From assembly GCA_017479985.1 (NCBI GenBank), contig JAFVBL010000021.1:1390-65389 (forward strand): a stretch of DNA of 64,000 nucleotides, given 5' to 3'. The notes beneath the pieces were generated by a model. That model did not search any database, had not been told where the DNA came from, and saw only the letters and a list, made by a program, of their open reading frames with translations. The first letter of the stretch is position 1, and each line of letters begins with the position of its first letter. Below are positions 21,754 through 58,658 of this stretch, one piece after another. Position numbers and translations under genes: made by a program. The DNA is from Alphaproteobacteria bacterium (lineage in GTDB: Bacteria; Pseudomonadota; Alphaproteobacteria; RF32; CAG-239).

Positions 21754-22119
21754 ATGGCTGAGAATATTACACTCAAAATATTCACGCCGGAAAAGACGGC
21801 CATTAACCGCAAGGTATATCGCGTGGTCTTGCCATACGGTACGACAGATTTGACCATTATTGAAGACCGCGCGCCGACTTCACTTATATTACACGACGGC
21901 GCAATGCATATTTTGAATGAAGATAACTCGATTGCCGACACTTATTTTTTGGACGACGGTGTTGTCGACGTGGCGGATAATGTGTGTAAAATCTCGACAC
22001 GTCACATTATTCATCGCTCAAAAATAAGCATTGAGCGTGCGCGTGAGTTATTGACGGAAGAGCCGCAAAACGAGTCGTATTATCAAGCAATTATCGATTA
22101 TCTTGAAAATTTCGAATAA
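21754..22119 (+). CDS. atpC: F0F1 ATP synthase subunit epsilon
   Basis: 121 aa directly after atpD; epsilon fold. Confidence 0.85.
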   Translation: MAENITLKIFTPEKTAINRKVYRVVLPYGTTDLTIIEDRAPTSLILHDGAMHILNEDNSIADTYFLDDGVVDVADNVCKISTRHIIHRSKISIERARELLTEEPQNESYYQAIIDYLENFE

Positions 22120-22194
22120 AAGAAATACTAAGGCTTTGCTCACACGGCATATTTTTTGTTATTTTTACAAGGTTCAATTAAAAATTCTGTTGAA

Positions 22195-22285
22195 GTATAC
22201 ACAAAGAATATGACCGTCACTCTGAAACGAAGGCGAGGAATCCCCTCTCACGCTGTGCGTCCTCGGACGTTATAAAATAGCAATA
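22195..22285. repeat. Partial copy of the dispersed MITE-like repeat family
   Basis: accgtcactctgaaacgaaggcgaggaatcccctctcacgctgtgcg is related to 25885-25950 and 7040-7130. Confidence 0.45.
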
Positions 22286-22397
22286 TAAATACTTTGCGAC
22301 AATTGCACCGCACCGACTGATATTTTTCGGTTCCGCCTCAAAATGACATATTTTGTTTTGTAAAGTACGTTTTCAACAATTTTATTAAATAGAGTGT

Positions 22398-23429
22398 TTA
22401 TTTTAAATTACGTCTGCCATACAATTTCAGTCCAACAGTCAAATATTTCCACTTTTGCCGCCAGAATAAAAATGCCAACAACCGCCGATATACACTCATA
22501 CCGTCGGAAATAAAAATCTTTCGTTGATACAAATCCAAGCACTCCTGATAATATTTCCGCCAATCTCGCACATAATCTTCGCTCTCATAATACGGAGCTA
22601 TGCAGATATAATCAAAGACATGCTGTGAAATCCGCCGATACAATTTTCTTTGCAACGCACTATCTATATTATCAATCCGTTCCGCAGAATACCTCAGTAG
22701 CCGAATATTATCATAAACCATTGTTTCCGTAAGTTTTCGATGAGTTAAGCTCGCTGAATTCTGCCGATATGCTAATAAACGCAATTTCACCCTTGCCACT
22801 TTATGTGCTTGATTAAACAGGCACAGTGAATAAAAAAAATCTTCTACTATAACTCTGAAATCAGTATTGAATCGTAGATTTTCCAACAGTTCTGCTCGAT
22901 ATAGCTTACCCCATACAGCAATATGTATCCGCGGTTTTTGTCGCAAAACAAAGCGTTCAAGAGGTTTTTCATACTCAGATACCCCATATTGTTCATATTC
23001 TTCTAACACATCCAACGTGCTGTTTTCATTACAATTTCCACCTTTGCACCATACAAAATCAGCCTGACTGCGTAACAAAGTTGCCAACATTATTTCCAAA
23101 AACTGCGGATACATCATATCATCTGGATCTAAAAATGCGATATATTGCCCGGTAGCGGCATCCAAACCGACATTGCGCGCCGAAGACACTCCGCCATTTG
23201 GCTTATCTATAACCTTAAATCTCGAGTCGTTTGCTGCATATCGCTGTAAAATTTCGAGTGAATTATCGGTCGAACCATCATTAACCAAAATAGCTTCCCA
23301 ATACGGGTATGTTTGATTTAATAAACTCTGCAAGCTCATATCTAAAAATTTGGCAACGTTATATACCGGAATAATTACCGAAACCATACCGACATTTTCC
23401 GGATTTGCCCCGACTTTATATTTTCTCAT
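22398..23429 (-). CDS. Family 2 glycosyltransferase
   Basis: VSVIIPVYN, NDGSTDNS and a DPDD (DxD) motif. ATG (MRKYKV) with GAAGGA SD is chosen over the TTG at 23444. Confidence 0.8.
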   Translation of the reverse strand: MRKYKVGANPENVGMVSVIIPVYNVAKFLDMSLQSLLNQTYPYWEAILVNDGSTDNSLEILQRYAANDSRFKVIDKPNGGVSSARNVGLDAATGQYIAFLDPDDMMYPQFLEIMLATLLRSQADFVWCKGGNCNENSTLDVLEEYEQYGVSEYEKPLERFVLRQKPRIHIAVWGKLYRAELLENLRFNTDFRVIVEDFFYSLCLFNQAHKVARVKLRLLAYRQNSASLTHRKLTETMVYDNIRLLRYSAERIDNIDSALQRKLYRRISQHVFDYICIAPYYESEDYVRDWRKYYQECLDLYQRKIFISDGMSVYRRLLAFLFWRQKWKYLTVGLKLYGRRNLK

Positions 23430-23451
23430 TCCCGTTTCCTTCAATACAAAA

Positions 23452-23657
23452 AATCCCGCTTTTGGAGAAGCGGGCGGATGTTCAGAAACCGTAATAAGCT
23501 AGATATAAGAACGGCTCGGCTTATTTGGCCGAAAAGCCTTATTCAGCCGACATCCGCCCTTATAGGACAGAAGCCGGCATATAGGATTAAAGTCGCCTAT
23601 GCTGCGACTATCTAGCATTATTAAAGGGTTTCTGACGCCCTGCAGTAGAATCTCACA
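23452..23657. repeat. Left arm of an about 200-bp imperfect inverted repeat; partner at 26190-26390
   Basis: By-eye alignment of this segment against the reverse complement of 26190-26390 shows about 80% identity. Shared blocks: agcgggcggatgttcagaaaccgt, ggctcggcttat, ccttattcagccgacatccgccc, ggacagaagccggcatat, and gggtttctgacgccc. Confidence 0.6.
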
Positions 23658-23860
23658 TACTGCGCTCTAAAGCTAATCTAAAAAATATTTAATGTAAAGA
23701 AAAATTTTTTCATACTCTAACCTTATGAATCTTAGTATTATTTTGCACTCATACACATAAATATTAAATACAATATATTGTTTATTTACTTTTTATTAAT
23801 ACTATATATAGTATATTAAGATTTAGCAAAACAACAAAAAACTTTTGAAGGAGAATAAAA

Positions 23861-24073
23861 ATGACTGTTATCAATTTTAATGATATTGCTTTAACCGACG
23901 CAGAGCGTCAACCGTGCGAAGTGTGGACCCGCGTGATGGGCTATCATCGTCCGGTTTCTGAATTTAATAAAGGCAAAAAGTCTGAGTATTATTCCCGTAA
24001 ATGTTTTGTTGAAGAAAAGGCTGTGCAGCACTTGGATTCTGATACGGAATCTTGCGCTTGTGCCGCAGAATAA
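23861..24073 (+). CDS. Small protein resembling the C-terminal glycyl-radical region of class III anaerobic ribonucleotide reductase (NrdD); stand-alone or gene remnant
   Basis: 70 aa, MTVINFNDIALTDAERQPCEVWTRVMGYHRPVSEFNKGKKSEYYSRKCF... The RVxGY followed by (W/F)NxGKxxE...R pattern matches, from memory, the NrdD glycyl-radical C-terminus. Strong AAGGAG SD and an AT-rich upstream region. Confidence 0.5.
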   Translation: MTVINFNDIALTDAERQPCEVWTRVMGYHRPVSEFNKGKKSEYYSRKCFVEEKAVQHLDSDTESCACAAE

Positions 24074-25879: not shown

Positions 25880-26035
25880 CCTGAAGAGCAAGCCGGTCAT
25901 TCTGAGCAGACACGTCAGTGTCGTCGCGAAGAATCTCCTTTCTCGCTGTGCAATATATTAAAGTCATACCTCGCACCGCACGGCGTGTCGGTGTGTCAAC
26001 GTATCTGACCTTTGCGTAGCTCCGATTCTATGCTG
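25880..26035. repeat. Short (internally deleted) copy of the dispersed repeat family
   Basis: ccggtcattctgagcag...gaagaatctcctttctcgctgtgcaatatattaaagtcatacctcgcaccgcacggcgtgtc...ggtatctgacctttgcgtagc matches both ends of the 7040-7375 copy. Confidence 0.5.
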
Positions 26036-26189
26036 ATTTCACAAGAATTTGAAGATTGCTTGACGCATTTGGCTAACGCAAAAGCAAGCGATGACTTTAT
26101 TATTTTTTAGCACTGTTACATCAACACGGTGTTGACATTTATTACAAATCCATTTATCGTTAGTGTCAGGTATGGGAGACCATACTTGA

Positions 26190-26390
26190 GGGCGTCAGAA
26201 CCCTGTTCATAAGATTGATTAGTCGCTGGAGCATAAGCGACTTAAAAATATATGCCGGCTTCTGTCCTTTTTTAAAGGGCGGATGTCGGCTGAATAAGGC
26301 TATGCCGAATAAGCCGAGCCGCTTTTTGAATCAATCTTATGACGGTTTCTGAACATCCGCCCGCTTTCTGACGAAAGTGGGTTTTTGTTT
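26190..26390. repeat. Right arm of the inverted repeat; partner at 23452-23657
   Basis: Reverse complement aligns to the left arm at about 80% identity (see the 23452-23657 feature). Confidence 0.6.
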
Positions 26391-26435
26391 TCAACGCAAA
26401 ACTTGCATCTCATATTTAGAACTAAAGGACCACTT

Positions 26436-27911
26436 ATGAAACTGACAAAAATTTCCCCTTTCAACTTACATTTAAAGAACTTATATGCCTTACCTTTTGT
26501 GTTTATATGTATTTTTTTGATATGCGCACGAAAATACGTTTGGAATTATTTTAACACTATGACCGGAGCTGAATTTCTATTTTTCATTCATACTCCAATA
26601 GATGGTGCAGACAAACGTTTAGTTCATATCTTTTTTAATAAATGTGTTCTCAATCCACTGATATACGCTGTCTTGATTTGTTACGCACGGGAAGTCTTTT
26701 TCTTATTAACACAAATATGGAATAAAAAATCTCAGATTTTCAAATTTATTTTTCAAGTGATACAATATATGCGCAGATATTATACTTTTTGGATTATTAT
26801 AATATCTTTACTCGGCTCAGGGTATCTCTTAACAAAATTCAAATTTATCAAAGATATTATAGAGATGCAAAAAGCACCTTACAGTACTTTTTTTGAAGAA
26901 AATTTTGTTCGCCCGAGTGTTCAAAATATATCATTATCTCAGAAAAAAAATTTAATCATTATTGCAGTTGAAAGTCTGGAAAAGACATTTGAAAATAAGA
27001 ATTTTTTTGGCCAATCAATGTTACCGCATCTGGAAAAGCTGGAAACGGAAGGTGTTCAGTTCAATAACTACACAAACGGGTGGAATACAACAAATACTAT
27101 GTCTTTCGTAATGGCTTTATTTGCCGGCGTGCCAAAGAGTTGTAATTATGCGCATCTCATCAACCACCACGGTAATAAAGTTAACCTGTTGAATAACTAT
27201 TATTCTCTCGGTAATTTTTTAAATGAACAAGGATATCAAACCTATGCAATTCAAACTTCAGATGCAAAATATGCCGGTCAGGGACATTTTTTTGAAACCC
27301 ACGGCATACAAAACATCATAGATAAATATTATATAAAAAATCAGTTCAATATCAAAGCTAAAGAAGATGAATGGGGATATAACGATGATATTTTGTTTGA
27401 TACCGCAAAAAAAGTATTGATGCAACGCGAAAATTCCGCACCTTATTTTATGTTTATTCAAACAATTGATTCACACGTCAATTATTTGCCGAATGTCAAA
27501 GACCACAAAAAATTCAAAAACAAATATCACAACATCATATACAACACAAATTTGCAAATTTATAACTTTGTTTTATGGCTGAAAACTCAACCGGATTATA
27601 AAAATACCGTTATTGTGATTTTGGGAGATCATTTAAGAATGGGTAATAATTTCCCGATGCCGAAGAAGCGTCAAAACTATAACCTGTTTTTAAATGTTCC
27701 TGTTCCTCAAAACACAGACCGTACATTTTCTCAAGTTGATTTATTACCAACCGTCTTAGAGGCTTTGGGTGCAAAAGTTGAAAATCATCAACTCGGAATC
27801 GGAATTTCCGTATTTAGCGACAGAGAAACACTGTTGGAAAAATACGGAAACTCACTTGGCAGTCTTCTTGCCAAACGCAGTAAGCTGAACGAAGAATTAT
27901 GGAAATTATAG
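26436..27911 (+). CDS. Membrane-anchored sulfatase-family transferase (alkaline-phosphatase superfamily; LtaS/OpgB/EptA-like)
   Basis: N-terminal TM helices followed by a sulfatase-type domain (IIIAVESLE, GWNTTNTM, DSHVNYLP, VIVILGDH). Codon use is markedly AT-rich (K/N/I/Y/F-rich). ATG (MKLTKISPF) with AAAGGA SD chosen over the ORF-track TTG start at 26385. Confidence 0.7.
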   Translation: MKLTKISPFNLHLKNLYALPFVFICIFLICARKYVWNYFNTMTGAEFLFFIHTPIDGADKRLVHIFFNKCVLNPLIYAVLICYAREVFFLLTQIWNKKSQIFKFIFQVIQYMRRYYTFWIIIISLLGSGYLLTKFKFIKDIIEMQKAPYSTFFEENFVRPSVQNISLSQKKNLIIIAVESLEKTFENKNFFGQSMLPHLEKLETEGVQFNNYTNGWNTTNTMSFVMALFAGVPKSCNYAHLINHHGNKVNLLNNYYSLGNFLNEQGYQTYAIQTSDAKYAGQGHFFETHGIQNIIDKYYIKNQFNIKAKEDEWGYNDDILFDTAKKVLMQRENSAPYFMFIQTIDSHVNYLPNVKDHKKFKNKYHNIIYNTNLQIYNFVLWLKTQPDYKNTVIVILGDHLRMGNNFPMPKKRQNYNLFLNVPVPQNTDRTFSQVDLLPTVLEALGAKVENHQLGIGISVFSDRETLLEKYGNSLGSLLAKRSKLNEELWKL

Positions 27912-27921
27912 AAGATACCCT

Positions 27922-28398
27922 CTACCCCAACGCTGTGCGATAGTGACTGCGCGTAATCGCCATCGCCAGTGCATCAGAAGAGTCGTTGTTTTTCGGCGCA
28001 CAGCCCGGAAGCAGAATCTTGACCATTGTTTCGACCTGCGTTTTTTCGGCACGTCCGACTCCGACCAATGCCTTTTTTACTTTGGTCGGGTCAAATTCAT
28101 AAAGCGGCAGATGATTATGCCCCACCGCCAAAATCACCACCCCGCGCGCCATACTCAATTTAAGAGAAGTTTCCGGATTTTTGTTCAAAAAAGTTTTTTC
28201 GATTGCCGCCTCTTGCGGTTGATAGTTTGCTATAACCTCGTTCAGCGTCGCAAAAATCAGCTCGAGCCTATCCTCTATCGGCATTTTCGGGTCGGTTGGA
28301 ATAAAACCGTCCGCAACGTATTGCAGACGGTTTCCGTTCACTTCTATCACACCCCAGCCGGTCGAGGTCAAACTCGGATCCAAACCCAAGATGCGCAT
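27922..28398 (-). CDS. ruvC: Holliday junction resolvase RuvC
   Basis: MRILGLDPSLTSTGWGVIE... and a C-terminal DSSDALAMAI. Confidence 0.9.
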   Translation of the reverse strand: MRILGLDPSLTSTGWGVIEVNGNRLQYVADGFIPTDPKMPIEDRLELIFATLNEVIANYQPQEAAIEKTFLNKNPETSLKLSMARGVVILAVGHNHLPLYEFDPTKVKKALVGVGRAEKTQVETMVKILLPGCAPKNNDSSDALAMAITRSHYRTALG

Positions 28399-29310: not shown

Positions 29311-31839
29311 TTAATTCAAGTGTTCAATCCGCTTTTGCCCCTCGATGAAAATGCCGTGTTCGTTGGCGGAAACATACGCTGTGCCGCCATCTGTGATTAC
29401 CCCGTCAAGCAACATCATTGAGAGCGGATTTTCGAGTTCGCGTACAATCAGCCGCTTTAACGGACGCGCACCAAACTCCGGATTATAGCCGTTTTCAGCA
29501 AACCAATCCCGTGCCCGTTCATCAAGTTTAATCGTGATATGACGTTCACTCAAGCGCTCTTGCAACCGCCCGATTTGAATCGCCAAAATCTGCCGAATAT
29601 CATCTTTTTTCAAAGAATTAAAGATCACAATTTCATCTAATCTGTTTAAAAACTCAGGTTTAAAGAACGCACGCAACGTCGACATCACATCTTGCCGCGC
29701 ATCGGTAATCAAATTAGATGTCAAAATGATGAATGTGTTTTTGAAATCAACCGTGCGCCCCTTACCGTCGGTCAAATGTCCTTCATCAAGCACTTGCAGC
29801 AACAGATTAAATACGTCCGGATGTGCCTTTTCCACCTCGTCAAACAAAATCACCTGATACGGACGCCGCCGCACTGCCTCTGTCAACACGCCGCCTTCGT
29901 CATAGCCGACATACCCCGGAGGTGCACCGATAAGCCGTGCCACCGAGTGCTTTTCCATATATTCCGACATATCAATGCGAATATATGCCCCTTCTTCATC
30001 AAACAAAAACTCCGCCAATGCTTTGGCCAATTCGGTTTTTCCGACACCGGTCGGACCTAAAAACAAAAATGAACCAATCGGACGATTCGGGTCTTTTAAG
30101 CCCGCACGTGAACGCCGCACCGCATTTGCCACCGCCGACAGCGCCGTATCCTGTCCGACCACACGCAACGCCAAATTTTTTTCGAGATTCAACAATTTTT
30201 CACGTTCGCTGCCGACCAGTTTTTCCACCGGAATCCCCGTCCATTTGGAAACGACCGACGCCACCATATCCGGCGTTACGGTTTCAACATCGCTCTTGGT
30301 ATTGTTTTGCATTTGCAACGTTTTCAATCGTTTTTCCATTTCCGGAATTTCTTTATATTGCAACTCACCGGCTTTTTCAAACTCTCCGCTTCTGAGTGCC
30401 TGCTCCATACGGATTCGCGCCGCATCGATTTTTTCGCGCAATGTATTCGCTTCATTCATCGAGCTTTTTTGCATATTCCATTTTTCGGTTTGCTCAGCCG
30501 ATTTCTTTTCAAGTTCGGCAATTTCCTCCTCCAATTTTTGCAAACGCTCAATCGACGCAAAATCTTTTTCTTTACGCAAAGCTTCCCGCTCTATTTTAAG
30601 CTGAATCAGCTTACGGTCGACTTCATCAAGTTCTTCCGGTTTGGAATCCAGTGCCATTTTGAGCTTGCTCGCCGCCTCATCAATCAAATCAATCGCTTTA
30701 TCCGGCAAGAATCTGTCGGTAATATAGCGATTAGACATTGTCGCCGCTGCCACCAATGACGCATCGGAAATTCTGACTCCGTGATGCAATTCATATTTTT
30801 CCTTAATGCCGCGCAGAATTGAAATCGTATCTTCCACATCTGTTTCACCGACATACACCGGCTGAAAACGCCGCGCAAACGCCGCATCTTTTTCAATATA
30901 CTTTTGATATTCTTTCAAAGTTGTTGCACCGATACAATGCAATTCACCGCGTGCCAATGCCGGTTTAAGCAGATTTGAGGCATCCATTGACCCCTCTGAC
31001 GCACCGGCACCGACCACCGTATGCATTTCATCAATAAACAAAATAACCTGACCGTTCGCCGCCTGAATTTCTTGCAATACGCCTTTTAAGCGTTCTTCAA
31101 ACTCACCGCGAAATTTTGCGCCGGCAATCAATGCCCCCATATCAAGTGCCATCAATCGCTTATGCTTTAAAGCATCAGGAACATCACCGTTAATAATTCT
31201 CTGAGCCAATCCTTCAACAATTGCGGTTTTACCGACCCCTGGTTCACCAATCAGAATCGGATTGTTTTTGGTGCGCCGCGACAACACCTGAATAGTGCGC
31301 CGAATTTCCTCATCACGCCCGATAATCGGATCGATTTTGCCCTGTGCCGCCCGTTCGGTATAATCCACCGCAAACTTTTTCAGCGCCTGAAAATTATCTT
31401 CGGCTGTTGCGGAATCTGCCGTGCGTCCTTGCCGCATTCTGTTAATTGCTTCATTGAGCCGTTGCGGATTAACACCGTAATTTTTCTGCATCAATGCTGC
31501 TTGCAACAAACGTTCGACACTCACATATGCATCTTTTGATTTTTTTGCCATATCTTCCGCCGTACCGAGCAGACGCATAAAATCCTGCGATAAATTAAGT
31601 TGCAGATTTTCGCCGTCAACCACCGGTTGCTTTGCCAACTCTTCTTCAACACGCGCCCGCACCGCATTGATATCTGCGCCGGCTTGCGATAACAGATTTG
31701 CCGCCATACCCTCATCATCTTCAAGCATAACTTTAAGTAAATGCACCGGTGTCAAATACGGATTATTACGTTTTGCCGCCAAGGTTTCGGCCTCTTGCAA
31801 ATAACCCTGACTTCTGTCTGTATAATTCTTCAAATTCAT
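29311..31839 (-). CDS. clpB: ATP-dependent chaperone ClpB
   Basis: Two AAA+ modules ([30 protein letters not shown]) with a long middle coiled-coil. ATG ([11 protein letters not shown]) with AAGGAG 10 nt upstream chosen over 31899. Confidence 0.95.
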
Positions 31840-31921
31840 CGTTTTCACACTCCTTATAAAAATTATATAGGGAGCAATTTTTTCAAATGCAATCCGCAAG
31901 CACTTTTTTCAAAATTAAAAT

Positions 31922-34603
31922 TTATGCATATTGTTTTGTTTTTGAAGCAAATGTTTGTTTTTTCTTTATTTTCAGATTTTTAAACTTTGTCGGTACAACT
32001 TTCTTTTCTGCCGCATCAGATTTTTGCTCCACCATACGACGCGCCTTATCCATTTCTTCGCGCACCCCCGAATTATCATCAGCCTGCGGTGCCGACATAA
32101 TAACTTCTTTGGTAAAACCGCCGGAAAGTGACGATGTTTGCTCAGAATGTTCCATTTCTCTCGCCTGTGTTTCGCGTAAAGACATCACAATTTCCTTGGC
32201 CTTATTTTGCAACAAATCAACAGCCTGAGTTAAAAACAGAGAAACTTTGCCGGACGAAATATGCGGCAATGTTGCCAACGGCTGTGTATATTTCGTATTT
32301 ACATTCAAAATTCCCTGTTGTGTCGGAGTCGGTTCTGCTTTTTCGATGTTTAATTTTCGTTTGAGCGCCGCTTGCAAACGGAAAAACTTTCCGGCAAAAT
32401 CGCAATATTCACGCGGTGTTGATGCTTGTTCCATCTGTTTTTTCAAATTGGCGGCAGCCGTGCTTTCCATACTTGTATCAACAGGAATTTTATCTATTTC
32501 CCCTTCGACACGCTGTTGTGTTTGATTCAGCATATACGTATCGTATGCCTGACGATATTCTATTTTTTGCGCCTGTAATTTAACATTTTTCGACAATTCT
32601 GCCGGCTCAAAAACATAACTGTTTAAATCCGCCATCACCGTTATACCGTCTTTAGGCATAATAATCCCCATTACCGCGCGGTCAAAATACCCTTCGACTT
32701 TTCGCCCGTGTGTAATCATTCTGTCCCGATGGATATATTTGGTTCGACACGCCATATCTTTACCGAGATGCAGACGCCCCTTTTCATCCATAGCGTTTTC
32801 ATTGATATGCAACAGCTCATGCACATCTTTATTGATATATAAGATATCTTCATTTATCTTTGTAAAACTCTTTCCGGTCATACGCTCATAATACGAGATA
32901 TTGCTGAGAGGGAAAATATGATGCGCATTACAATCCTTATGCGACTTACCGTGTTGCATATATTCAATGGCGGCATCTTTTTCTTTTTGTGCTCTGTTTC
33001 TGATTGATTCGGCTATTTCCTGATTTGTTTTATGCTGTTTATGACCTTCAAGGGTCAGCGGCAAAGTATATTTCTTCTTAAAATAAGCAAACATTGTCTG
33101 TCGCAGCTCTTTTTCGTGTTTTGCTACCAGATTTTTGAGATATTTCTCTTTGTCCGATGCAATTTCCACACCGTTTTTATTGGCCATTGACTTATAATTT
33201 GTAATTTTGCGCCGATTGATTAAAAACGTAAGATCTTCATATTTCAGATTTGCAACCTCCTGCGGCGGAATTGACATCGCTTTCATTTGTGCAAGCAATG
33301 CCGTTTCCAAAGCCTGAAATTGCGGAATCTGTTTGCATATATTCCAAATTTTATTTTTTTTCAAATTCTTTTCATATTCTTCCGGTGTATAATCCGCCTT
33401 CAGAAAAGCATCTAACTGTTGTTGCTTTTCTTCACTCAGCCCCTGCCGTCCGACTAAATCGCGCATTTTCAAAACATCTCTGACTGCCGCAGAAAGTTGT
33501 TTTTCAGTCGGTTCCAAAATCATGCCGCTCCACGCCGCCCGCATTACTCTGGATTTTGTTTGATCAATTTCGCGCAATTCCAATGCCGTACGCTGAGTTT
33601 CATCTATTGTTGCAATCAACTTCTCTTTGGAAGGGTTTTCCATAAAATCTTTCAGCAATGCCGACATTTTTTGCGTCTCGCTCGGATTAAACTCCTCCAT
33701 ATTTTTACACAAATTAAGAAAAACAGGCAATTTTGTATTATAAAATTCCGGCGGTGTTTGCTCTTGTTGTAAATCCTTTTTCATAAAATAAAGATTATCA
33801 ACAAATTCCGCTTCGTACGGAGGTTCCTGACACCACACCATCCGCATTCCCAATCCGTCCAACGTATTGCTTACAACTTGTTGATTTCGCTCAAAATCGC
33901 CCGCATTGTCTGCTGTAATATTGGTCAGTGTCTCTATTTGCTTTTTCAATGTGTTACGATGTGCACGTGCTTTTTCTGCAGTCGATTGAAAGCTGTACAC
34001 GTGCTTATTTTCAGTCTTTTCTGCCAGATAATACTGCATTTTACGCAGCGCCCCAAACGAAACCTGATCAAATTTTTTGAAACGCTCGCGCTCTTGAAAA
34101 CTTGCATCATCATAAGTTTGTTGCCGTTCGTTATTCTGTAAGAAAGCATCGATTCTTTCAATAAAAGATTGCAATTTTGCCTGCGTTTTTTCATCAATAT
34201 CGCATTCTTTCGGATTTAAAATATCACCGGTCTTCGAATCTTTGGTATCAAACTCTATAAAATCAGCATTTACGACATAATTCTCACCGATATGCGGGAA
34301 TTCCTGACGCAAAAAATTCGGAAATTCCGCCGCCACATCTTGTCTTAATTGTACAATTTCCTGATTGTCCGGCTGTTTATTCTGCCATTTAAGCAATTCA
34401 CGATACACGGAGTTTAAAATATAGCAATAAGACACCTCCCTTGCAACCGGCTCTTCCGAATAATATGCCCCGTCACCGTTCTGCATATTGTTTTCGGCAG
34501 CACTTAAAACCTCGGCATATTTTTGCAACATCGGTGTATTCGCAAGCGCTTCTCCGATTTGCGGCGGCTTTTCTACAAACACATATCGATCATCTATTGC
34601 CAT
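31922..34603 (-). CDS. Large (893 aa) cytoplasmic hypothetical protein with a possible HNH-like His-rich motif
   Basis: No signal peptide; charged and partly coiled. Segment NAHHIFPLSN...NKDVHELLH resembles an HNH (HH...N...H..H) core; this is a weak by-eye call. Lies between the DEAD-like gene and clpB on the same strand. Confidence 0.6.
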   Translation of the reverse strand: MAIDDRYVFVEKPPQIGEALANTPMLQKYAEVLSAAENNMQNGDGAYYSEEPVAREVSYCYILNSVYRELLKWQNKQPDNQEIVQLRQDVAAEFPNFLRQEFPHIGENYVVNADFIEFDTKDSKTGDILNPKECDIDEKTQAKLQSFIERIDAFLQNNERQQTYDDASFQERERFKKFDQVSFGALRKMQYYLAEKTENKHVYSFQSTAEKARAHRNTLKKQIETLTNITADNAGDFERNQQVVSNTLDGLGMRMVWCQEPPYEAEFVDNLYFMKKDLQQEQTPPEFYNTKLPVFLNLCKNMEEFNPSETQKMSALLKDFMENPSKEKLIATIDETQRTALELREIDQTKSRVMRAAWSGMILEPTEKQLSAAVRDVLKMRDLVGRQGLSEEKQQQLDAFLKADYTPEEYEKNLKKNKIWNICKQIPQFQALETALLAQMKAMSIPPQEVANLKYEDLTFLINRRKITNYKSMANKNGVEIASDKEKYLKNLVAKHEKELRQTMFAYFKKKYTLPLTLEGHKQHKTNQEIAESIRNRAQKEKDAAIEYMQHGKSHKDCNAHHIFPLSNISYYERMTGKSFTKINEDILYINKDVHELLHINENAMDEKGRLHLGKDMACRTKYIHRDRMITHGRKVEGYFDRAVMGIIMPKDGITVMADLNSYVFEPAELSKNVKLQAQKIEYRQAYDTYMLNQTQQRVEGEIDKIPVDTSMESTAAANLKKQMEQASTPREYCDFAGKFFRLQAALKRKLNIEKAEPTPTQQGILNVNTKYTQPLATLPHISSGKVSLFLTQAVDLLQNKAKEIVMSLRETQAREMEHSEQTSSLSGGFTKEVIMSAPQADDNSGVREEMDKARRMVEQKSDAAEKKVVPTKFKNLKIKKKQTFASKTKQYA

Positions 34604-34683
34604 ATTTTACCATCCTTTATTATACAACAGTATAACAAAACATTTTCCGATTGTCCAGTATTTTTTGTCGATTTTTTACAAAT

Positions 34684-34718
34684 AACTCGTCTTCCTGTAA
34701 ATTGCAAGAAGACGAGTT
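34684..34718 (-). terminator. Perfect 11-bp stem-loop downstream of the DEAD-like gene (candidate terminator or attenuator)
   Basis: aactcgtcttc-ctgtaaattgcaa-gaagacgagtt; downstream U-tract on the minus strand is weak (auuugu). Confidence 0.3.
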
Positions 34719-34744: not shown

Positions 34745-35680
34745 TCAGTCACCTTCCGCCAATTCAACCGCCGTCAGCAAAAACGCCGGTGTATTACGAC
34801 CGAATGTATGATATTTTTTAACCAGATTCAACGCTTCGGCATCTTTACTGCTTTCACGCCGCGATAATGTACGTTTTGCATCATTTTGCAGCGATTTTGC
34901 CTGTTTATTCGCCTTACCTTTTTCCTCTTTTACCATCGAAGACTGCAAATGTTCTTGCTGAACCGAACTTTGCGCTTTTTCATCCGACAATACTGCTTTC
35001 TCCGCCAAATCGGCATTCTTTTCGGCATTTGATACATTTCCATTGCCGACATTGTCTTCACGCACAACTTCTTCCTCGTTTTTATTGATTTTTATTTCTT
35101 CCGGTGTTTGCAAGATTTTATCCAAGATTGACTGCGTTTCTTTTGACCGACGGTTGGTAAAGACAATATTCTGCTTATCCGCCGGCAAAACCGCCAAAAT
35201 CTTTTCCAATTTTTCCAACTGATGCGTCTTTTTAATCAGGTTAATATCGTCCACCACCAAAATATCAATCTGTGATAAATCAATTTTATCTTCATCAAGC
35301 AAGTCCGAAAGCAAATTCGGTGAGGCAATAATCACATTAGCCTCCTGTTCAAAGCTCTCTTCGGATTCCGCAACATCTTCTGCCGAAATTTCGTGATATT
35401 TGTTAAATACGGCGAATCTGTCCGAAACAGCAACAGAAGCCTGAGAACCTGACGTAATAATCAAAATATTGCGTGCTTTTTTCTGCGCCATAATTTCAAT
35501 CAGCGGAAACACATAAGCACACGTTTTACCGCATTTAATCGGTGCAATCGTAAACACATCTTTGCCTGCCAATACGGCCGGAATGACATCGGCCTGCACC
35601 GTTGTCGGTTCTTTTATGCCGGCCTCCTCGATTGCTTGAATTGTCTTATCACTTAAACCCAAATCTCTGAAATTCATCAT
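34745..35680 (-). CDS. Truncated or degenerate DEAD-box helicase-like protein (RecA-like domain 1 only) with a K/E-rich low-complexity tail
   Basis: Q-motif region GIKEPTTVQ. Motif I degenerate (APIKCGKT instead of AxTGSGKT). Ib-like ASPNLL. Motif II VDDI instead of DEAD. Motif III FTN instead of SAT. No helicase domain 2. Starts 6 nt after the ftsH stop. Confidence 0.65.
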   Translation of the reverse strand: MMNFRDLGLSDKTIQAIEEAGIKEPTTVQADVIPAVLAGKDVFTIAPIKCGKTCAYVFPLIEIMAQKKARNILIITSGSQASVAVSDRFAVFNKYHEISAEDVAESEESFEQEANVIIASPNLLSDLLDEDKIDLSQIDILVVDDINLIKKTHQLEKLEKILAVLPADKQNIVFTNRRSKETQSILDKILQTPEEIKINKNEEEVVREDNVGNGNVSNAEKNADLAEKAVLSDEKAQSSVQQEHLQSSMVKEEKGKANKQAKSLQNDAKRTLSRRESSKDAEALNLVKKYHTFGRNTPAFLLTAVELAEGD

Positions 35681-38680: not shown

Positions 38681-39583
38681 TCAATTCAAAAACAAACGAA
38701 TTTGCCCCAAAAGTCCCGAATGTGCCAATAAAAATTCGGAACACTGTGAAATATGCCTGTTTTTAAAAGCCTGCTCTTTCAGGTATTTCTGATTCTCTTT
38801 ATCCGAGCAATGCGTCCATAAATCTTCCCAATCAACTTTGTCCGGATACTCGGTCAAAAATTTGGGATGGAAACTGTGATTTTTGACAAACACATCGAAT
38901 TGCTGATGTTCCAACAATATATTGTAACGTCTGGAATTGTAGAGTTCATCAATCAGCCCTTTTTGCAGACAATATTCTTCAATTTCCGCACGCGGCAGAA
39001 GTCCGCAGAAACTTCCTCGCTCCAACACCCAATCAGCCAGTCCCTGATCAATCAGATATTTCCAACCGTCTTGATGTTGCACAATATCAAAATACCATTT
39101 TTTGGCCAAACAAAAAGGTGCATATTTTGCAAAATCCACCTTAAGCAATGAGGGATACAGCTCCATTTCTTCGGCAATCTGCGGGGCATTTTGCGCAATC
39201 AAATCAAACCGTTTGCGGTTTTTCAGAACTTGCCACAGCTCAAACCGCACACAATCTTCATCGCTCGGCCAATCCGACGGCAAACCGTCTTGAAATTCCG
39301 GCAGAATAGCCGCCAAATCGGCATCTTCAAAATAGCCTTGAATCCATCTGGGCACATCATCAGAGTCATACACCTCAGCCAGAAGCAACACCTCTTTGAT
39401 AACCGCATCGCTGTAGCCGAAGAACACCATACTTGTCAGCATAAACGCACTGAGCGGCATACCGTCGCGCAAAAGCTGCTTTAATCGCCCGATTTCGGAA
39501 TTTTCGATACAGAACCACGCAATCATATCGTTCTGGTTATCCGAATTGAGTGCGATAATACCTTTAAAATCTTTCATAAGCAA
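38681..39583 (-). CDS. Hypothetical protein (300 aa), Trp/acidic-rich
   Basis: Long ORF, no recognisable domain. Confidence 0.5.
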   Translation of the reverse strand: MLMKDFKGIIALNSDNQNDMIAWFCIENSEIGRLKQLLRDGMPLSAFMLTSMVFFGYSDAVIKEVLLLAEVYDSDDVPRWIQGYFEDADLAAILPEFQDGLPSDWPSDEDCVRFELWQVLKNRKRFDLIAQNAPQIAEEMELYPSLLKVDFAKYAPFCLAKKWYFDIVQHQDGWKYLIDQGLADWVLERGSFCGLLPRAEIEEYCLQKGLIDELYNSRRYNILLEHQQFDVFVKNHSFHPKFLTEYPDKVDWEDLWTHCSDKENQKYLKEQAFKNRHISQCSEFLLAHSGLLGQIRLFLN

Positions 39584-40858: not shown

Positions 40859-42235
40859 ATGGCTACAAATGATTCAAAGTCATTTTTTGACTTACCTGTG
40901 ACAACACAACTTTTCTATTTGATTGGATTTCTGTGGACAGTGCAGTTACTTCTGATTTTCAACCCTCTCACGCTTTTCGTGCTGAATATCTTCAAGCCCC
41001 GCTGGGCAAGGAACGTGGCACATTGGAATGAGCTTTACGGAGAGAGTTGGCAGAAGTTCTTTGAGCGACAGGCCAAGAAATGGCCGTGGCACTGGGCAAA
41101 ATGGTGGCACACCTGCGAGGAGATAGGCTGTATGGCTGAAGAGAAGCAGTTGGATTACTACTACAATGTCAGTCACTCAATCAAAACTCTCAACGTGATG
41201 TCTATCAGTACTTCCGCAAAGGTTATAGGCAAAGATTTTGAAGGGTTCAAAGGGTATATGGCAACTGTCAACACTCTAAATGCGATGTCTGTTGCCATTT
41301 CCGCTAAGGATGCATATATCAACATAAGCTGCAATCTTTTTTGCGCCTTTATCCGTGCAAGCATTGAAAAAGACGATATGTCAGCTCTGGGGGATTACCT
41401 CAAGCGCGGAACGCTTCCGAAAGATCAGGTTATGATTTTATCGGAGTATGCTAGACAAAGTACTACGGGCGTTTACCGCAACACTTGGTTAGCGTTGGTT
41501 TTCTACGACTACGTTGAGCGTTGCGGTCTCGGCAAGGATTTACTCAAAAACATCTTAGAGCGTCCAAGTTCTGCCAAATTCAAGGAAGAAGTTGAGAAGC
41601 GTCAGAACATCTACAGTCAGCGTGTGTTTACCAAATCACAGCGCGGCACTAAGCAGACCGATGCATGGCTGCATTTCTGCGGAAAGACCGAGGAAATCTG
41701 CCCACAGGCGCAGATGGAAATGGGACTTGACCAGTATCATGTCTTTCACAAGACCGGCCACACGCTTGATGCCGAGGCAATCCTACACATCTTGAGCCAC
41801 AATTCTGACCGGACAATGGCGCAGTTGATTTTCAAGTATGAGCCGAACTTCGGAATCGCCAATGATGAGGTCAAGGAGTTGATTGATAAGAAGCCGGAGC
41901 TGAAGAGTATCTTCAATGACGCCAATATCGCTTTGATTGAGAAGGATCTGGAACAGCGTATTTGTAACCGTGAAGAGTTGACCGAAGAGCAGATAAACAA
42001 AATGTTTGACTGTCCGAATGCCGGTCAGTTGGTCATTGATTACATCGGTTTTTATCCGTTGCCGCAGAAGTTCCACAAGCGTATGTTGGAATTGGAAACT
42101 GCCGACGGGGTTCTCGGGTACTACCTTATGCAGAGTTGGTTCTCTGAAGATTACAAGCTTGATGCAGACGTTCTTGAAGAATGCAAAAAGCGTGGCCTTC
42201 GTCTTGAACCGGATCCCAAATGGGACGACGATTAA
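40859..42235 (+). CDS. Hypothetical protein (458 aa) with an N-terminal hydrophobic segment; noticeably higher GC than its neighbours
   Basis: N-terminal LFYLIGFLWTVQLLLIFNPLTLFVLNIF and a W-rich WPWHWAKWWH segment. Codon usage is C/G-rich (ctc, cag, ggc) relative to flanking genes; this is a by-eye estimate. Confidence 0.55.
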   Translation: MATNDSKSFFDLPVTTQLFYLIGFLWTVQLLLIFNPLTLFVLNIFKPRWARNVAHWNELYGESWQKFFERQAKKWPWHWAKWWHTCEEIGCMAEEKQLDYYYNVSHSIKTLNVMSISTSAKVIGKDFEGFKGYMATVNTLNAMSVAISAKDAYINISCNLFCAFIRASIEKDDMSALGDYLKRGTLPKDQVMILSEYARQSTTGVYRNTWLALVFYDYVERCGLGKDLLKNILERPSSAKFKEEVEKRQNIYSQRVFTKSQRGTKQTDAWLHFCGKTEEICPQAQMEMGLDQYHVFHKTGHTLDAEAILHILSHNSDRTMAQLIFKYEPNFGIANDEVKELIDKKPELKSIFNDANIALIEKDLEQRICNREELTEEQINKMFDCPNAGQLVIDYIGFYPLPQKFHKRMLELETADGVLGYYLMQSWFSEDYKLDADVLEECKKRGLRLEPDPKWDDD

Positions 42236-58454: not shown

Positions 58455-58658
58455 TTTCGTACTCCTTACAGCTTTACTATTTTTGTCAGTATAACGCACT
58501 TTTTTTCAAAATACAAGCAAAAAATGACAAAATTTTGATATTTTTTTGTTAATATTGTCAAATTATAATGTATTCGGTCAATAATCAGTTTTTTTGCTAT
58601 ACTTTCCTATTTTATATGATATAACAGTTTTAGTTTAAGAGAGGTTAACGGAACACAA

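What the first reader, a model, noticed from the sequence alone, without database searches (positions are those of the whole stretch)
31922..34603. 893-aa orphan protein with a putative HNH-like core
No signal peptide and no known enzymatic motif apart from a His-rich stretch (NAHHIFPLSN...N...DVHELLH). That stretch has the spacing of HNH/His-Me finger nucleases. Large multi-domain proteins carrying an HNH core can be toxins, effectors or defence nucleases.
Basis: inference. Interest (0 to 1): 0.55.

Follow-up and report, generated by a model that had tools for sequence, protein, structure and literature searches.

The report
Divergent HNH nuclease, no immunity gene
This 893-residue protein from an uncultured rumen/gut alphaproteobacterium very probably contains a new, highly diverged HNH-type DNA-cutting domain related to bacterial toxin nucleases, but unlike its shorter relatives it has no protective immunity gene beside it, so its role in the cell is still open.

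Summary
ORF 31922-34603 (-) encodes 893 aa, and no Pfam, NCBIfam, PADLOC, PHROG or PDB-sequence match reaches a curated or significance threshold. The motif HH(561/562)...N584...H595-x3-H599 is real.

It arises in 0.075% of shuffles. Of 17 histidines, only these four are invariant across 49 homologues (14% mean identity).

The HNH reading is supported indirectly:
- The commonest weak Pfam hits in the family are four His-Me-finger families (DUF2380/SitA6, AHH, HNH_2, colicin/pyocin DNase), all sub-threshold. Those located lie on the motif.
- A profile comparison with DUF2380, a proven DNase, gives 71% probability and superposes all four histidines.
- The confident full-length AlphaFold model shows strand, insert, strand, helix.

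The family has only 48 representatives among 1.84 billion proteins, and every labelled member is an uncultured alphaproteobacterial MAG. Short members (359-609 aa) are followed by a SUKH-family gene in 6 of 7 loci, a classic nuclease-immunity pair.

The long form here has no such gene, has its own conserved near-consensus promoter, sits beside clpB in 14 long-form loci (not P0019), and evolves much faster than ClpB. A toxin or effector role is plausible but unproven.

The parts
31922..34603 (-). Complete gene for the 893-aa long-form protein (stop codon 31922-31924)
   Evidence: ORF list. Full-length homologues in 13 further MAG loci. AlphaFold2 full-length model has mean pLDDT 81.2 and pTM 0.71.
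33557..34603 (-). Residues 1-349: N-terminal, mostly helical extension found only in long and mid-length forms (MAIxxRY..., REVSYxYxLNSxYR, WCQEPPYE). Absent from the short forms that are paired with SUKH.
   Evidence: Alignments A1 and A2. The best-matching stretches of remote representatives start at profile positions of about 300-410.
33044..33556 (-). Residues 350-520: helical core shared by the whole family (RAAWxGxI, S371, Y410, WNICxQVPxF, IPP...LxYxD457, HEKELR)
   Evidence: Invariant G360 and D457, and near-invariant R355, S371, Y410, W420 and F429, in the 49-sequence alignment. Most remote hits match best at profile positions of about 350-530.
32795..32935 (-). Residues 557-603: HNH-like (His-Me finger) core. 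Strand 558-562 ends in H561-H562; helical insert 566-585 carries N584; strand 587-591; helix 592-598 carries H595; then H599 and E602. Codons: H561 32921-32923, H562 32918-32920, N584 32852-32854, H595 32819-32821, H599 32807-32809, E602 32798-32800.
   Evidence: Conservation. Secondary structure and pLDDT 82-96 in the full-length model. Sub-threshold Pfam hits to DUF2380, AHH and Col-Pyo_DNase on this stretch. hhalign against DUF2380. Coordinates.
32594..32794 (-). Residues 604-670: small beta-rich domain after the HNH core (six strands, 622-665; RTKY, GY, PKxGI motifs). Present in shortened form in short family members.
   Evidence: DSSP of the model; alignment A4.
32162..32593 (-). Residues 671-814: C-terminal helical region, poorly conserved (mean identity to the window sequence 0.33)
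31925..32161 (-). Residues 815-893: low-confidence (pLDDT below 50 over most of it), predicted-disordered tail whose C-terminal end is strongly basic; the last 30 residues have net charge +9
   Evidence: pLDDT below 50 for 815-849 and 854-893. Family-wide, the last 30 residues average +5.1 against +0.24 per 30 residues in the rest of the protein, and 36 of 49 tails are at least +4.
34629..34657 (-). Near-consensus sigma-70-type promoter of the gene: -35 TGGACA (34657-34652), 17-nt spacer, extended -10 TGtTATACT (34637-34629). It is preceded by an A-tract and TCGACA (34671-34666); SD AAGGA lies at 34617-34613.
   Evidence: Best-scoring site in the scan, 10 of 12 matches with a TG extension. The same block is conserved at nucleotide level in 12 aligned loci, including those whose protein is only about 26% identical. 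Function is inferred, not shown.
34679..34718 (-). Terminator-like hairpin (14-bp stem, dG -20.1 kcal/mol, then TTATTTG) that ends the upstream DEAD-domain gene and separates it from the promoter
   Evidence: Sequence and fold. Analogous hairpins precede the promoter in the other loci.
29311..31839 (-). clpB, immediately downstream and co-directional (probable ATG at 31839, 82 nt after the stop). No minus-strand terminator-like site lies between the two genes. It is a conserved neighbour, not shown to be part of a system.
   Evidence: Pfam. Sequence. Terminator scan. ClpB lies next to the gene in all 14 long-form loci whose flanks contain a ClpB, in two orientations; the most divergent long form (P0019, L022/L023) has none within 5 kb.

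Best explanation
The gene encodes a lineage-specific, mostly alpha-helical multidomain protein of an uncultured rumen/gut alphaproteobacterium. Its most conserved part (residues about 557-603) is a strongly diverged His-Me-finger (HNH) nuclease core of the colicin-DNase / AHH / SitA6 type.

Inferred mechanism, by analogy with colicin E7/E9-type HNH enzymes: H562 at the end of the first strand acts as general base and activates a water molecule. H561, H595 and H599 (H-x3-H on the helix), possibly with E602, hold one divalent metal ion that stabilises the transition state. N584 braces the loop between the strands. The substrate is most probably DNA, cut with little sequence preference. The basic disordered C-terminal tail would add non-specific nucleic-acid affinity or serve as an export signal.

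The protein belongs to a previously undescribed family that so far carries labels only from uncultured Alphaproteobacteria. Short members are encoded as nuclease plus SUKH-family partner cassettes, the canonical toxin-immunity layout. The window protein is the long form. It has gained a roughly 350-residue N-terminal extension, has no immunity gene in cis, in the 64-kb window, or fused to it, and is transcribed from its own near-consensus promoter. It is inherited vertically at a fixed site next to clpB and evolves several times faster than ClpB. I infer that its nuclease is kept harmless to the producer by the extra domains or by export, rather than by a separate immunity protein. It then acts either on foreign or competitor DNA or in a specialised DNA transaction of the cell.

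Shown here: the conserved signature, family membership, gene contexts, the partner's SUKH identity and the promoter motif. Inferred: the fold, catalysis, the substrate, self-protection and the biological role.
For: - Motif and conservation: four invariant His, N584 in 32/34 and E/D602 in 33/34, in a family with 14-24% mean column identity. The motif region is the most conserved segment of the protein, 0.70 against 0.20-0.66 elsewhere.
- Convergent weak hits: among 24,736 Pfam models, the families hit by most of the 49 members are DUF2380 (3 members), AHH (2), HNH_2 (2) and Col-Pyo_DNase (2). The only other family hit twice is PX. The DUF2380, AHH and Col-Pyo_DNase hits were located and lie on the motif; the HNH_2 hits were not located.
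- The best PDB sequence hit of the family profile is the HNH enzyme McrA, aligned at its EVHHVIPLS strand, but E=0.64.
- Profile-profile: the 12-sequence domain against a 26-sequence DUF2380/SitA6 alignment gives probability 71% and E=3.7e-5. It maps H561/H562 onto invariant H147/H148, H595 onto H177 and H599 onto H181. The 34-sequence profile gives 50% and E=1.7e-4 with the same register.
- The DUF2380 protein pMF1.20 degrades plasmid DNA in vitro and is neutralised by its partner (PMC6091211). SitA6 toxin domains are classed as AHH nucleases, PF14412 (PMC8546572).
- Structure: in the full-length model (pLDDT 81, pTM 0.71) the region has pLDDT 82-96 and reads strand 558-562, helices, strand 587-591, helix 592-598.
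- Family context: 6 of 7 short-form loci have an overlapping or abutting 132-138-aa downstream gene. That gene hits SUKH_5 (4 of 6 members, best E=1.3e-5), SMI1_KNR4 (4 of 6) and SUKH_6 (2 of 6). SUKH proteins are the described immunity partners of nucleic-acid-degrading toxins, HNH-fold ones included (PMC3113570, PMC5714182).
Against: - No database match reaches a curated threshold. The best Pfam score is 20.8 bits against a cut-off of 26.3, and the hhalign probabilities of 50-71% fall short of proof.
- For a toxin or effector role of this long form: no SUKH-like gene in the 64-kb window or within +-8 kb (+-5 kb for P0019's loci) in the long-form loci examined, and none fused (hhalign probability 0.1%).
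- There is no secretion-system gene in the window and no known trafficking domain.
- The gene is single-copy, syntenic and vertically inherited, unlike typical polymorphic toxins.
- A near-consensus promoter would be hard to reconcile with an unrestrained DNase.
Confidence: 0.62

Rival explanations
1. The HNH-like module is a domesticated, non-toxic enzyme with a housekeeping role, for example a structure-specific nuclease in DNA repair or recombination, or a factor linked to the ClpB proteostasis system. It would be descended from a toxin-immunity ancestor and would no longer need immunity because it has become specific or tightly regulated. This overlaps the best explanation on the fold and differs on the role.
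For: - Fixed chromosomal position in an FtsH / DEAD / gene / ClpB / YebC / RuvC block.
- ClpB is adjacent in 14 long-form loci despite an inversion, and YebC-RuvC is adjacent in the most divergent long form.
- One copy per genome in 9 species representatives.
- Own near-consensus promoter, conserved across the clade.
- No immunity gene. No hits in PADLOC, PHROGs or viral contigs.
- By analogy, SitA6 toxicity depends on the AAA+ unfoldase ClpA/ClpS (PMC8546572).
Against: - It evolves far faster than its neighbour: 38-43% identity where ClpB is 82-84%, and 60-67% where ClpB is 95%. That is unusual for a core DNA-repair enzyme and more typical of conflict-related proteins.
- The adjacency can be explained by ancestral synteny plus one local inversion.
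- No DNA-repair domain or regulatory box was found; there is no GTTC-N7-GTTC or CTGT-N8-ACAG SOS box upstream.
Confidence: 0.22
2. The four histidines form a structural or regulatory metal (zinc) site without nuclease activity. The domain would serve as a DNA- or protein-binding module, as some His-Me-finger derivatives do (for example the Smad MH1 domain).
For: - Histidine clusters also bind structural zinc.
- No immunity protein is needed.
- Expression appears to come from a strong promoter.
- The domain needs the rest of the protein to be modelled confidently (versus 51), which suggests tight integration.
- The His-Me classification lists groups that lack the catalytic histidine (PMC5714182).
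Against: - The complete catalytic set of colicin-type HNH enzymes is retained and invariant, in long and short forms alike: the general-base His next to a ligand His, the bracing Asn, and H-x3-H.
- Short forms keep an immunity-type partner, which implies real toxicity of the same active site.
- The groups thought inactive in PMC5714182 lack the catalytic His, whereas this family retains it.
Confidence: 0.1
3. H595-E-L-L-H599 is a zincin HExxH motif, and the protein is a metalloprotease.
For: The window sequence literally reads HELLH. E602 could act as a third ligand, as in gluzincins.
Against: - Position 596 is Glu in only 4 of 34 family members; otherwise it is D, R, Q, T, K, F, N, L, H or P. 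The catalytic Glu of zincins is therefore not conserved.
- The invariant HH pair and N584 have no role in zincins.
- No peptidase family appears at the motif among the weak Pfam hits.
Confidence: 0.02
4. The region is a metal-dependent hydrolase or binding site of a fold unrelated to His-Me fingers, and the resemblance to HNH is convergent.
For: All database similarities are below threshold. No fold match was obtained.
Against: Four different HNH-type families and an HNH PDB entry are what recur out of tens of thousands of models. The register of the hhalign match places all four His on invariant His of DUF2380. The predicted secondary-structure order fits beta-beta-alpha.
Confidence: 0.04

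Closest known systems
DUF2380 / TIGR02269 / SitA6 polymorphic toxin lipoproteins of myxobacteria (PF09533), e.g. pMF1.20
   Same: This is the best sequence relative. There are sub-threshold Pfam hits on the motif in 6 of 8 domain cuts. hhalign gives 71% with HHIFP...F..G...H-x3-H in register and all four invariant His superposed. pMF1.20 is a proven DNase neutralised by an adjacent partner (PMC6091211), and SitA6 toxin domains are described as AHH nucleases (PMC8546572).
   Different: [quoted passage not shown] They are delivered by outer-membrane exchange, occur in many copies per genome, often lie on mobile DNA, and always pair with a double-CXXCG immunity gene (PMC12077181, PMC8546572). The window protein is 893 aa and cytoplasmic by sequence. 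It is single-copy and syntenic, has no immunity gene, and shares nothing with SitA6 outside about 40 residues. Its scores stay below the Pfam cut-off.
AHH nuclease toxin domain (PF14412) of the HNH/EndoVII superfamily
   Same: The [A/x]HH start of the motif is followed by a hydrophobic residue and Pro (NAHHIFP). The metal-binding His residues lie on the helix. A weak hit to P0028 (E=0.0044) falls on the motif, and 2 of 49 members hit the family. In the literature the family is associated with immunity proteins in polymorphic toxin systems (PMC3482391, PMC5714182).
   Different: No member reaches the gathering score. AHH domains are C-terminal cassettes of secreted polymorphic toxins, whereas here the domain is internal and followed by about 290 more residues. 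The Ala of AHH is not conserved here (A, G, V, C or I).
Colicin E7/E9 and pyocin S2 DNase domains (PF21431; HNH group 18 in PMC5714182)
   Same: The same HH...N...H-x3-H arrangement. From my knowledge of colicin E9 these are H102, H103, N118, H127 and H131, with H103 the general base and the other three His binding the metal. A weak Pfam hit in P0040 (E=0.025) falls on the motif. These enzymes are likewise nucleases neutralised by a dedicated small protein.
   Different: The spacing is longer: 22 and 11 residues here against 15 and 9 in E9, because of a helical insert. Colicins have receptor-binding and translocation domains, are plasmid-borne and are SOS-regulated; none of that is seen here.
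HNH/WHH/LHH toxin plus SUKH (Smi1/Knr4) immunity gene pairs
   Same: Short members of this family are followed by a SUKH-superfamily gene in 6 of 7 loci. This is the arrangement described for nucleic-acid-degrading toxins (PMC3113570) and for His-Me groups 4 and 11 (PMC5714182).
   Different: The window's long form has no SUKH gene. The short-form cassettes also lie in stable chromosomal sites (Peptidase_M17 ... Sua5) and show no recognisable secretion or trafficking domain.
Tox-REHH (Rehh), a recently described deeply divergent HNH DNase toxin (bioRxiv 10.64898/2026.09.22.753552)
   Same: It is a precedent for an HNH active site hidden in a scaffold that global sequence and fold searches do not recognise. 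It also has a histidine-based metal pocket.
   Different: The conserved set and spacing differ (R46, H52-E53, H102, H121). Rehh is a C-terminal domain of secreted polymorphic toxins with Imm22 and other immunities. No similarity to it was detected or claimed here.

Membership tests
His-Me finger (HNH / beta-beta-alpha-metal) superfamily | Catalytic His at the end of the first beta-strand | tested here: met
   H561-H562 are invariant in 49 of 49 sequences and lie at the end of predicted strand 558-562. That H562 is the general base is inferred by analogy.
His-Me finger (HNH / beta-beta-alpha-metal) superfamily | [quoted passage not shown] | tested here: met
   H595 is invariant and lies in predicted helix 592-598, directly after strand 587-591. 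H599 is invariant four residues later.
His-Me finger (HNH / beta-beta-alpha-metal) superfamily | Beta-beta-alpha three-dimensional fold with the ligands converging on one metal site | tested here: inconclusive
His-Me finger (HNH / beta-beta-alpha-metal) superfamily | Significant sequence or profile similarity to an established member family | tested here: inconclusive
   The best Pfam score is 20.8 bits for DUF2380 (cut-off 26.3). AHH gives E=0.0044, HNH_2 E=0.0058 and Col-Pyo_DNase E=0.017. hhalign against DUF2380 gives probability 71%. McrA gives E=0.64. The results converge but stay below threshold.
His-Me finger (HNH / beta-beta-alpha-metal) superfamily | Metal-dependent nuclease activity | not testable with these tools
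   Requires biochemistry.
DUF2380 / SitA6 (PF09533) | Score above the Pfam gathering threshold over the 187-position model | tested here: not met
   Only model positions of about 83-155 match, at no more than 20.8 bits against 26.3. I do not file it as a member.
DUF2380 / SitA6 (PF09533) | Lipoprotein signal peptide and conserved Cys/Pro/Trp framework (C62, C67, GPWN...W) | tested here: not met
   There is no signal peptide or lipobox. The invariant DUF2380 residues outside the HH/H/H set have no counterpart in alignment A3 or A4.
Polymorphic toxin-immunity system | Immunity gene immediately downstream of the toxin gene | tested here: not met
   In the window, clpB follows after 82 nt. No SUKH-like ORF lies in the 64-kb window or in the long-form loci examined, and none is fused. 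The feature is met for short-form relatives in 6 of 7 loci.
Polymorphic toxin-immunity system | N-terminal trafficking or secretion domain with a variable C-terminal toxin cassette; multiple or mobile copies | tested here: not met
   No known trafficking domain. The nuclease-like core is internal and is the most conserved part. The gene is single-copy and syntenic and is absent from viral contigs.
Zincin metalloproteases (HExxH) | Conserved catalytic Glu in HExxH | tested here: not met
   Glu at position 596 in 4 of 34 sequences.
Known anti-phage defence systems (PADLOC models) | Match to a defence-system protein model | tested here: not met
   No hit for the window protein or for P0028, P0040 or P0033. 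There are only stray weak hits elsewhere in P0017 and P0019.
SUKH superfamily (partner of the short forms; not in the window) | Profile match to SUKH families | tested here: met
   SUKH_5 in 4 of 6 members (best E=1.3e-5), SMI1_KNR4 in 4 of 6 (best E=0.001), SUKH_6 in 2 of 6. A PDB sequence search gave no support.

The most novel reading that the evidence does not exclude
The long form is a toxin-derived HNH nuclease that has been retained as a core, immunity-free gene of a gut/rumen alphaproteobacterial lineage. One reading is a domesticated enzyme whose activity is gated in cis by the roughly 350-residue N-terminal extension, perhaps with the adjacent AAA+ disaggregase ClpB; compare the ClpA/ClpS dependence of SitA6 toxicity. 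The other reading is an exported genotoxin-like effector whose lysine-rich tail acts as a transport or nuclear-localisation signal. Either would be a mode of self-protection or deployment not described for HNH toxins.
Probability: 0.15. Interest if true: 0.7.

Novelty: new variant of a known kind. Interest (0 to 1): 0.45.

Why it matters
If confirmed, this adds an unannotated family to the His-Me-finger nucleases. It has 48 representatives among 1.84 billion proteins, and every record seen is labelled 'hypothetical'. All members that carry a label come from uncultured host-associated Alphaproteobacteria. The family also offers a natural experiment. The same active site occurs in short proteins guarded by a SUKH immunity gene, and in long, fast-evolving, vertically inherited proteins that have no immunity gene and a strong promoter. 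Working out how the long form avoids killing its producer (cis-inhibition, export or acquired specificity) would show how toxin nucleases are tamed or redeployed. In practical terms, the signature HH-x~21-N-x~10-H-x3-H-x2-[E/D] and the alignments made here could seed a family model for annotating rumen and gut MAGs.

Tried and rejected
- **Direct annotation.** Pfam, NCBIfam, PADLOC, PHROGs and PDB sequence searches gave nothing above threshold.
- **Fold searches.** Foldseek with the full-length model returned only long helical proteins at non-significant scores, against the PDB and BFVD.
- **Domain-only model.** The AlphaFold model of residues 525-675 had pLDDT 44.6 and was discarded. I therefore did not spend a fold search on it.
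- **Word-indexed homologue search.** Using the 49-sequence profile returned only the 12 close members, so the remote members could not be used for structure prediction.
- **HExxH metalloprotease reading.** Rejected because the Glu is not conserved.
- **Membership in Tox-REHH.** Rejected on motif pattern and spacing.
- **Fused immunity domain in the long form.** Rejected.
- **Immunity gene elsewhere in the window or in long-form loci.** None found.
- **The 95-121-aa ORF after the P0007/P0011-type long forms.** It is unrelated to the SUKH partner and has no counterpart in the window.
- **Phage carriage.** No relatives of the family or of the partner in viral contigs.
- **SOS, CtrA or GANTC regulatory sites upstream.** No SOS or CtrA site in any of 15 loci, and no GANTC site upstream in the window or 10 other loci; single GANTC sites lie 138-179 nt upstream in four loci.
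- **A regulon defined by the upstream TTGACA...TGGACA composite.** Matches in the window do not exceed chance. The block is best read as an ordinary strong promoter.
- **hhalign of the family profile against single sequences.** pMF1.20 and colicin E9 from memory gave weak results. Only the comparison with a real DUF2380 alignment was informative.
Full report
**1. The observation**

The ORF is exactly as described: 31922..34603 on the minus strand, ATG start, 893 aa. Twelve homologues share the N-terminus MA[IV]xxRY, which confirms the start.

The protein has no signal peptide and no transmembrane segment; the highest 19-residue hydropathy window is 0.92. Nothing reaches a curated or significance threshold in Pfam or PHROGs, and there is no hit at all in NCBIfam, PADLOC or PDB sequences.

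The quoted stretch is residues 559-599. The pattern HH-x(10-30)-N-x(5-15)-H-x3-H occurs in 0.075% of composition-preserving shuffles of this protein.

Conservation is the stronger argument. Of the 17 histidines, only H561, H562, H595 and H599 are invariant, both in the 12 close homologues and in a 49-sequence alignment with 14% mean column identity. Every other histidine is at most 50% conserved. In a 34-sequence domain alignment, N584 is Asn in 32/34 and position 602 is Glu or Asp in 33/34.

The family signature is therefore HH - about 21 residues - N - about 10 residues - H-x3-H-x2-[E/D].

**2. Organism and family**

The identical protein is recorded as hypothetical protein IJ770_03110 of an alphaproteobacterial MAG. 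A scan of one genome per GTDB species found nine loci. All are uncultured Alphaproteobacteria or 'proteobacterium' MAGs, and the source labels shown are mostly rumen, with one copy each.

An exhaustive profile search of 1.84 billion representatives found only 48 proteins at E<=0.001. The few that carry a label are again alphaproteobacterial MAG hypotheticals.

The family splits into two groups:
- **Long and mid-length forms** (about 600-905 aa) share the N-terminal region.
- **Short forms** (359-609 aa) start shortly before the shared helical core (window residues about 350-520), which precedes the histidine motif.

**3. Is the motif an HNH / His-Me finger?**

*Sequence evidence*
- Cutting out the domain and scanning Pfam gives DUF2380 (PF09533) on exactly the motif in 6 of 8 members. 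The best score is 20.8 bits against a cut-off of 26.3.
- Scanning all 49 family members individually, the families hit by most members out of 24,736 are DUF2380 (3), AHH (2), HNH_2 (2) and the colicin/pyocin DNase domain (2). The only other family hit twice is PX; the rest are unrelated singletons.
- The AHH hit in P0028 and the Col-Pyo_DNase hit in P0040 lie on the motif.
- The best PDB sequence hit of the family profile is the HNH enzyme McrA, aligned at its EVHHVIPLS strand, although E=0.64.

*Comparison with DUF2380*
- DUF2380 is the myxobacterial SitA6 toxin family (PMC12077181).
- Its member pMF1.20 nicks and degrades plasmid DNA in vitro and is neutralised by the adjacent pMF1.19 (PMC6091211).
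- SitA6 toxin domains are described as AHH nucleases (PMC8546572).
- I fetched pMF1.20, collected 32 homologues, aligned 26 and ran profile-profile comparisons.
- The 12-sequence domain against DUF2380 gives probability 71% and E=3.7e-5. It places H561/H562, H595 and H599 on the invariant H147/H148, H177 and H181 of DUF2380.
- The 34-sequence profile gives 50% in the same register.

*Structure*
- The full-length AlphaFold2 model is confident (mean pLDDT 81.2, pTM 0.71). Over residues 551-600 the pLDDT is 82-96.
- The order of elements there is strand 558-562 (ending in HH), helices 566-576 and 580-585 (with N584), strand 587-591, then helix 592-598 (with H595), followed by H599.
- This is the order expected for a beta-beta-alpha-metal unit with a helical insert. 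The residue pattern is that of colicin E9 (H102-H103, N118, H127-x3-H131, from my own knowledge).

*What is missing*
- The domain modelled alone was unusable (pLDDT 44.6).
- Foldseek with the full model found no nuclease.

I therefore rate the HNH assignment as likely but not proven.

*Two alternatives tested and rejected*
- H595-E-L-L-H599 reads as a zincin HExxH motif, but Glu occupies position 596 in only 4 of 34 members.
- The recently described Tox-REHH family has a different conserved set and spacing.

**4. Context in the window**

The gene lies in a housekeeping block, all on the minus strand: FtsH, a DEAD-domain protein, the gene, ClpB, YebC and RuvC. Elsewhere in the window are FtsZ/FtsA, ATP synthase subunits, HflX and a DNA methylase, and no secretion system.

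A 14-bp-stem hairpin ends the upstream gene (34718-34679, dG -20.1). It is followed by TGGACA-17 nt-TGtTATACT (34657-34629), the best promoter-like site in the region.

The same block is conserved at nucleotide level in 12 aligned loci, including those whose protein is only about 26% identical. No SOS or CtrA box was found upstream in any of the 15 loci, and no GANTC site upstream in the window; four other loci have one 138-179 nt upstream.

ClpB starts 82 nt after the stop codon, with no terminator-like site on that strand between them.

**5. Comparative context**

ClpB lies next to the gene in all 14 long-form loci whose flanks contain a ClpB. It is either co-directional downstream, as here, or divergent upstream, which a single inversion can explain. 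The most divergent long form (P0019) lies next to YebC-RuvC and has no ClpB within 5 kb.

The protein evolves much faster than its neighbour:

| ClpB identity to the window | This protein's identity |
|---|---|
| 95% | 60-67% |
| 82-84% | 38-43% |
| 75% | about 26-30% |

So this is a vertically inherited, single-copy, fixed-position but fast-evolving gene.

**6. The short forms have an immunity-type partner**

- In 6 of 7 short-form loci, drawn from different subfamilies, a 132-138-aa gene overlaps or abuts the 3' end.
- These six small proteins are one family (for the first pair; E down to 1e-39 against a profile of three).
- They match SUKH_5 (4 of 6 members, best E=1.3e-5), SMI1_KNR4 (4 of 6) and SUKH_6 (2 of 6).
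- SUKH proteins are the described immunity proteins of nucleic-acid-degrading toxins, including His-Me-finger toxins (PMC3113570, PMC5714182).
- This context independently supports a real, potentially self-toxic nuclease activity for the shared active site.
- The seventh locus has two tandem paralogues and no partner.
- The short-form cassettes also sit at stable chromosomal sites (Peptidase_M17 ... Sua5).

**7. The long form has none**

- A profile of the partner finds nothing in the 64-kb window or in the long-form loci examined, which cover +-8 kb (+-5 kb for P0019's loci).
- There is no fused SUKH domain (hhalign probability 0.1%).
- The 95-121-aa ORF that follows some long forms is unrelated to the partner and is absent from the window.
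- Neither the family nor the partner occurs in viral contigs.

**8. Other features**

A basic C-terminal tail is family-wide. The last 30 residues average +5.1 net charge, against +0.24 per 30 residues in the rest of the protein. The window protein's tail is +9, and most of residues 815-893 have pLDDT below 50. Such a tail could bind nucleic acid or act as a transport signal; neither possibility was tested.

**9. Interpretation**

The best-supported reading is a new, divergent family of His-Me-finger nucleases related to the AHH / SitA6 / colicin DNase group. Its short members form nuclease-SUKH pairs.

The window gene is an N-terminally extended, immunity-less variant. The catalytic set is intact and under strict purifying selection while the rest of the protein diverges quickly. 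An enzyme under conflict-type or lineage-specific selection fits this better than a decayed relic.

How the producer tolerates it, and what it acts on, is not established. Candidates are cis-inhibition by the extra domains, export, or acquired specificity.

SitA6 toxicity depends on the ClpA/ClpS unfoldase system (PMC8546572). That is an intriguing parallel to the conserved clpB neighbour, but it is only a lead, because the adjacency can be plain synteny.

**10. Verdict**

- I do not file the protein as a member of DUF2380, AHH or the colicin DNases, because thresholds and defining non-catalytic features are not met. I judge that it works like them.
- Novelty: a new variant of a known kind.
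- Interest is moderate (0.45).

Noticed in passing
window 34745-35680 (-): A 311-aa protein with only the first (DEAD, PF00270) helicase domain at residues 26-175, followed by a long K/E/S-rich low-complexity tail and no Helicase_C domain. It lies between ftsH and the finding. It is conserved as the upstream neighbour in the two closest genomes (L005, L006).
   Followed up: partly
window 55014-58499 (-), 7640-9097 (-), 40859-42235 (+), 38681-39583 (-): Four further sizeable ORFs (1161, 485, 458 and 300 aa) have no Pfam match at the thresholds used. The 1161-aa one is a second large orphan in this window.
   Followed up: no
window 26001-28000 and 22001-24000: Two low-GC patches (0.351 and 0.372, against about 0.44 for the window). 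The first contains a Sulfatase-family gene (26385-27911, +) wedged between CoA-transferase genes and ruvC, so it may have been acquired horizontally.
   Followed up: no
window 34629-34671 (-) and the equivalent positions in L001-L022: The promoter block (A-tract, T[G/A]GACA, 17 nt, TG[C/T]TAnnnT) is more conserved at nucleotide level than the coding sequence it drives, across genomes whose proteins share only about 26% identity. An upstream TTGACA/TCGACA hexamer at variable distance might be a second -35 element or an operator.
   Followed up: partly
L027 2547-5299 (+): Two tandem family paralogues (485 aa and 432 aa, overlapping by 4 nt), both with an intact HH...N...H-x3-H motif. No SUKH partner is present, at the same Peptidase_M17 ... 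Sua5 site where other genomes carry one short form plus a partner.
   Followed up: partly
L001 10444-10809 (+); L004 10658-10945 (+): A conserved ORF of 95-121 aa with no known family follows the long form in the P0007/P0011 clade (97% identical between the two loci). It is unrelated to the SUKH partner and absent from the window.
   Followed up: partly
L001 7669-7881 (+), L004 7671-7883 (+), and the ends of the upstream regions in L003 and L007-L013: A 70-aa NRDD-family gene (glycyl-radical-domain-like, GrcA-type) lies immediately upstream of the long form in most lineages. In the window's lineage the DEAD-domain gene takes its place.
   Followed up: no
window 31840-31921 (-): The 82-nt spacer between the gene and clpB contains CTTGCGG...TTGAAA...CCCTATATAAT, which looks vaguely like a heat-shock (sigma-32-type) promoter. 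The spacings did not fit the consensus as I recall it, and I did not pursue it.
   Followed up: no
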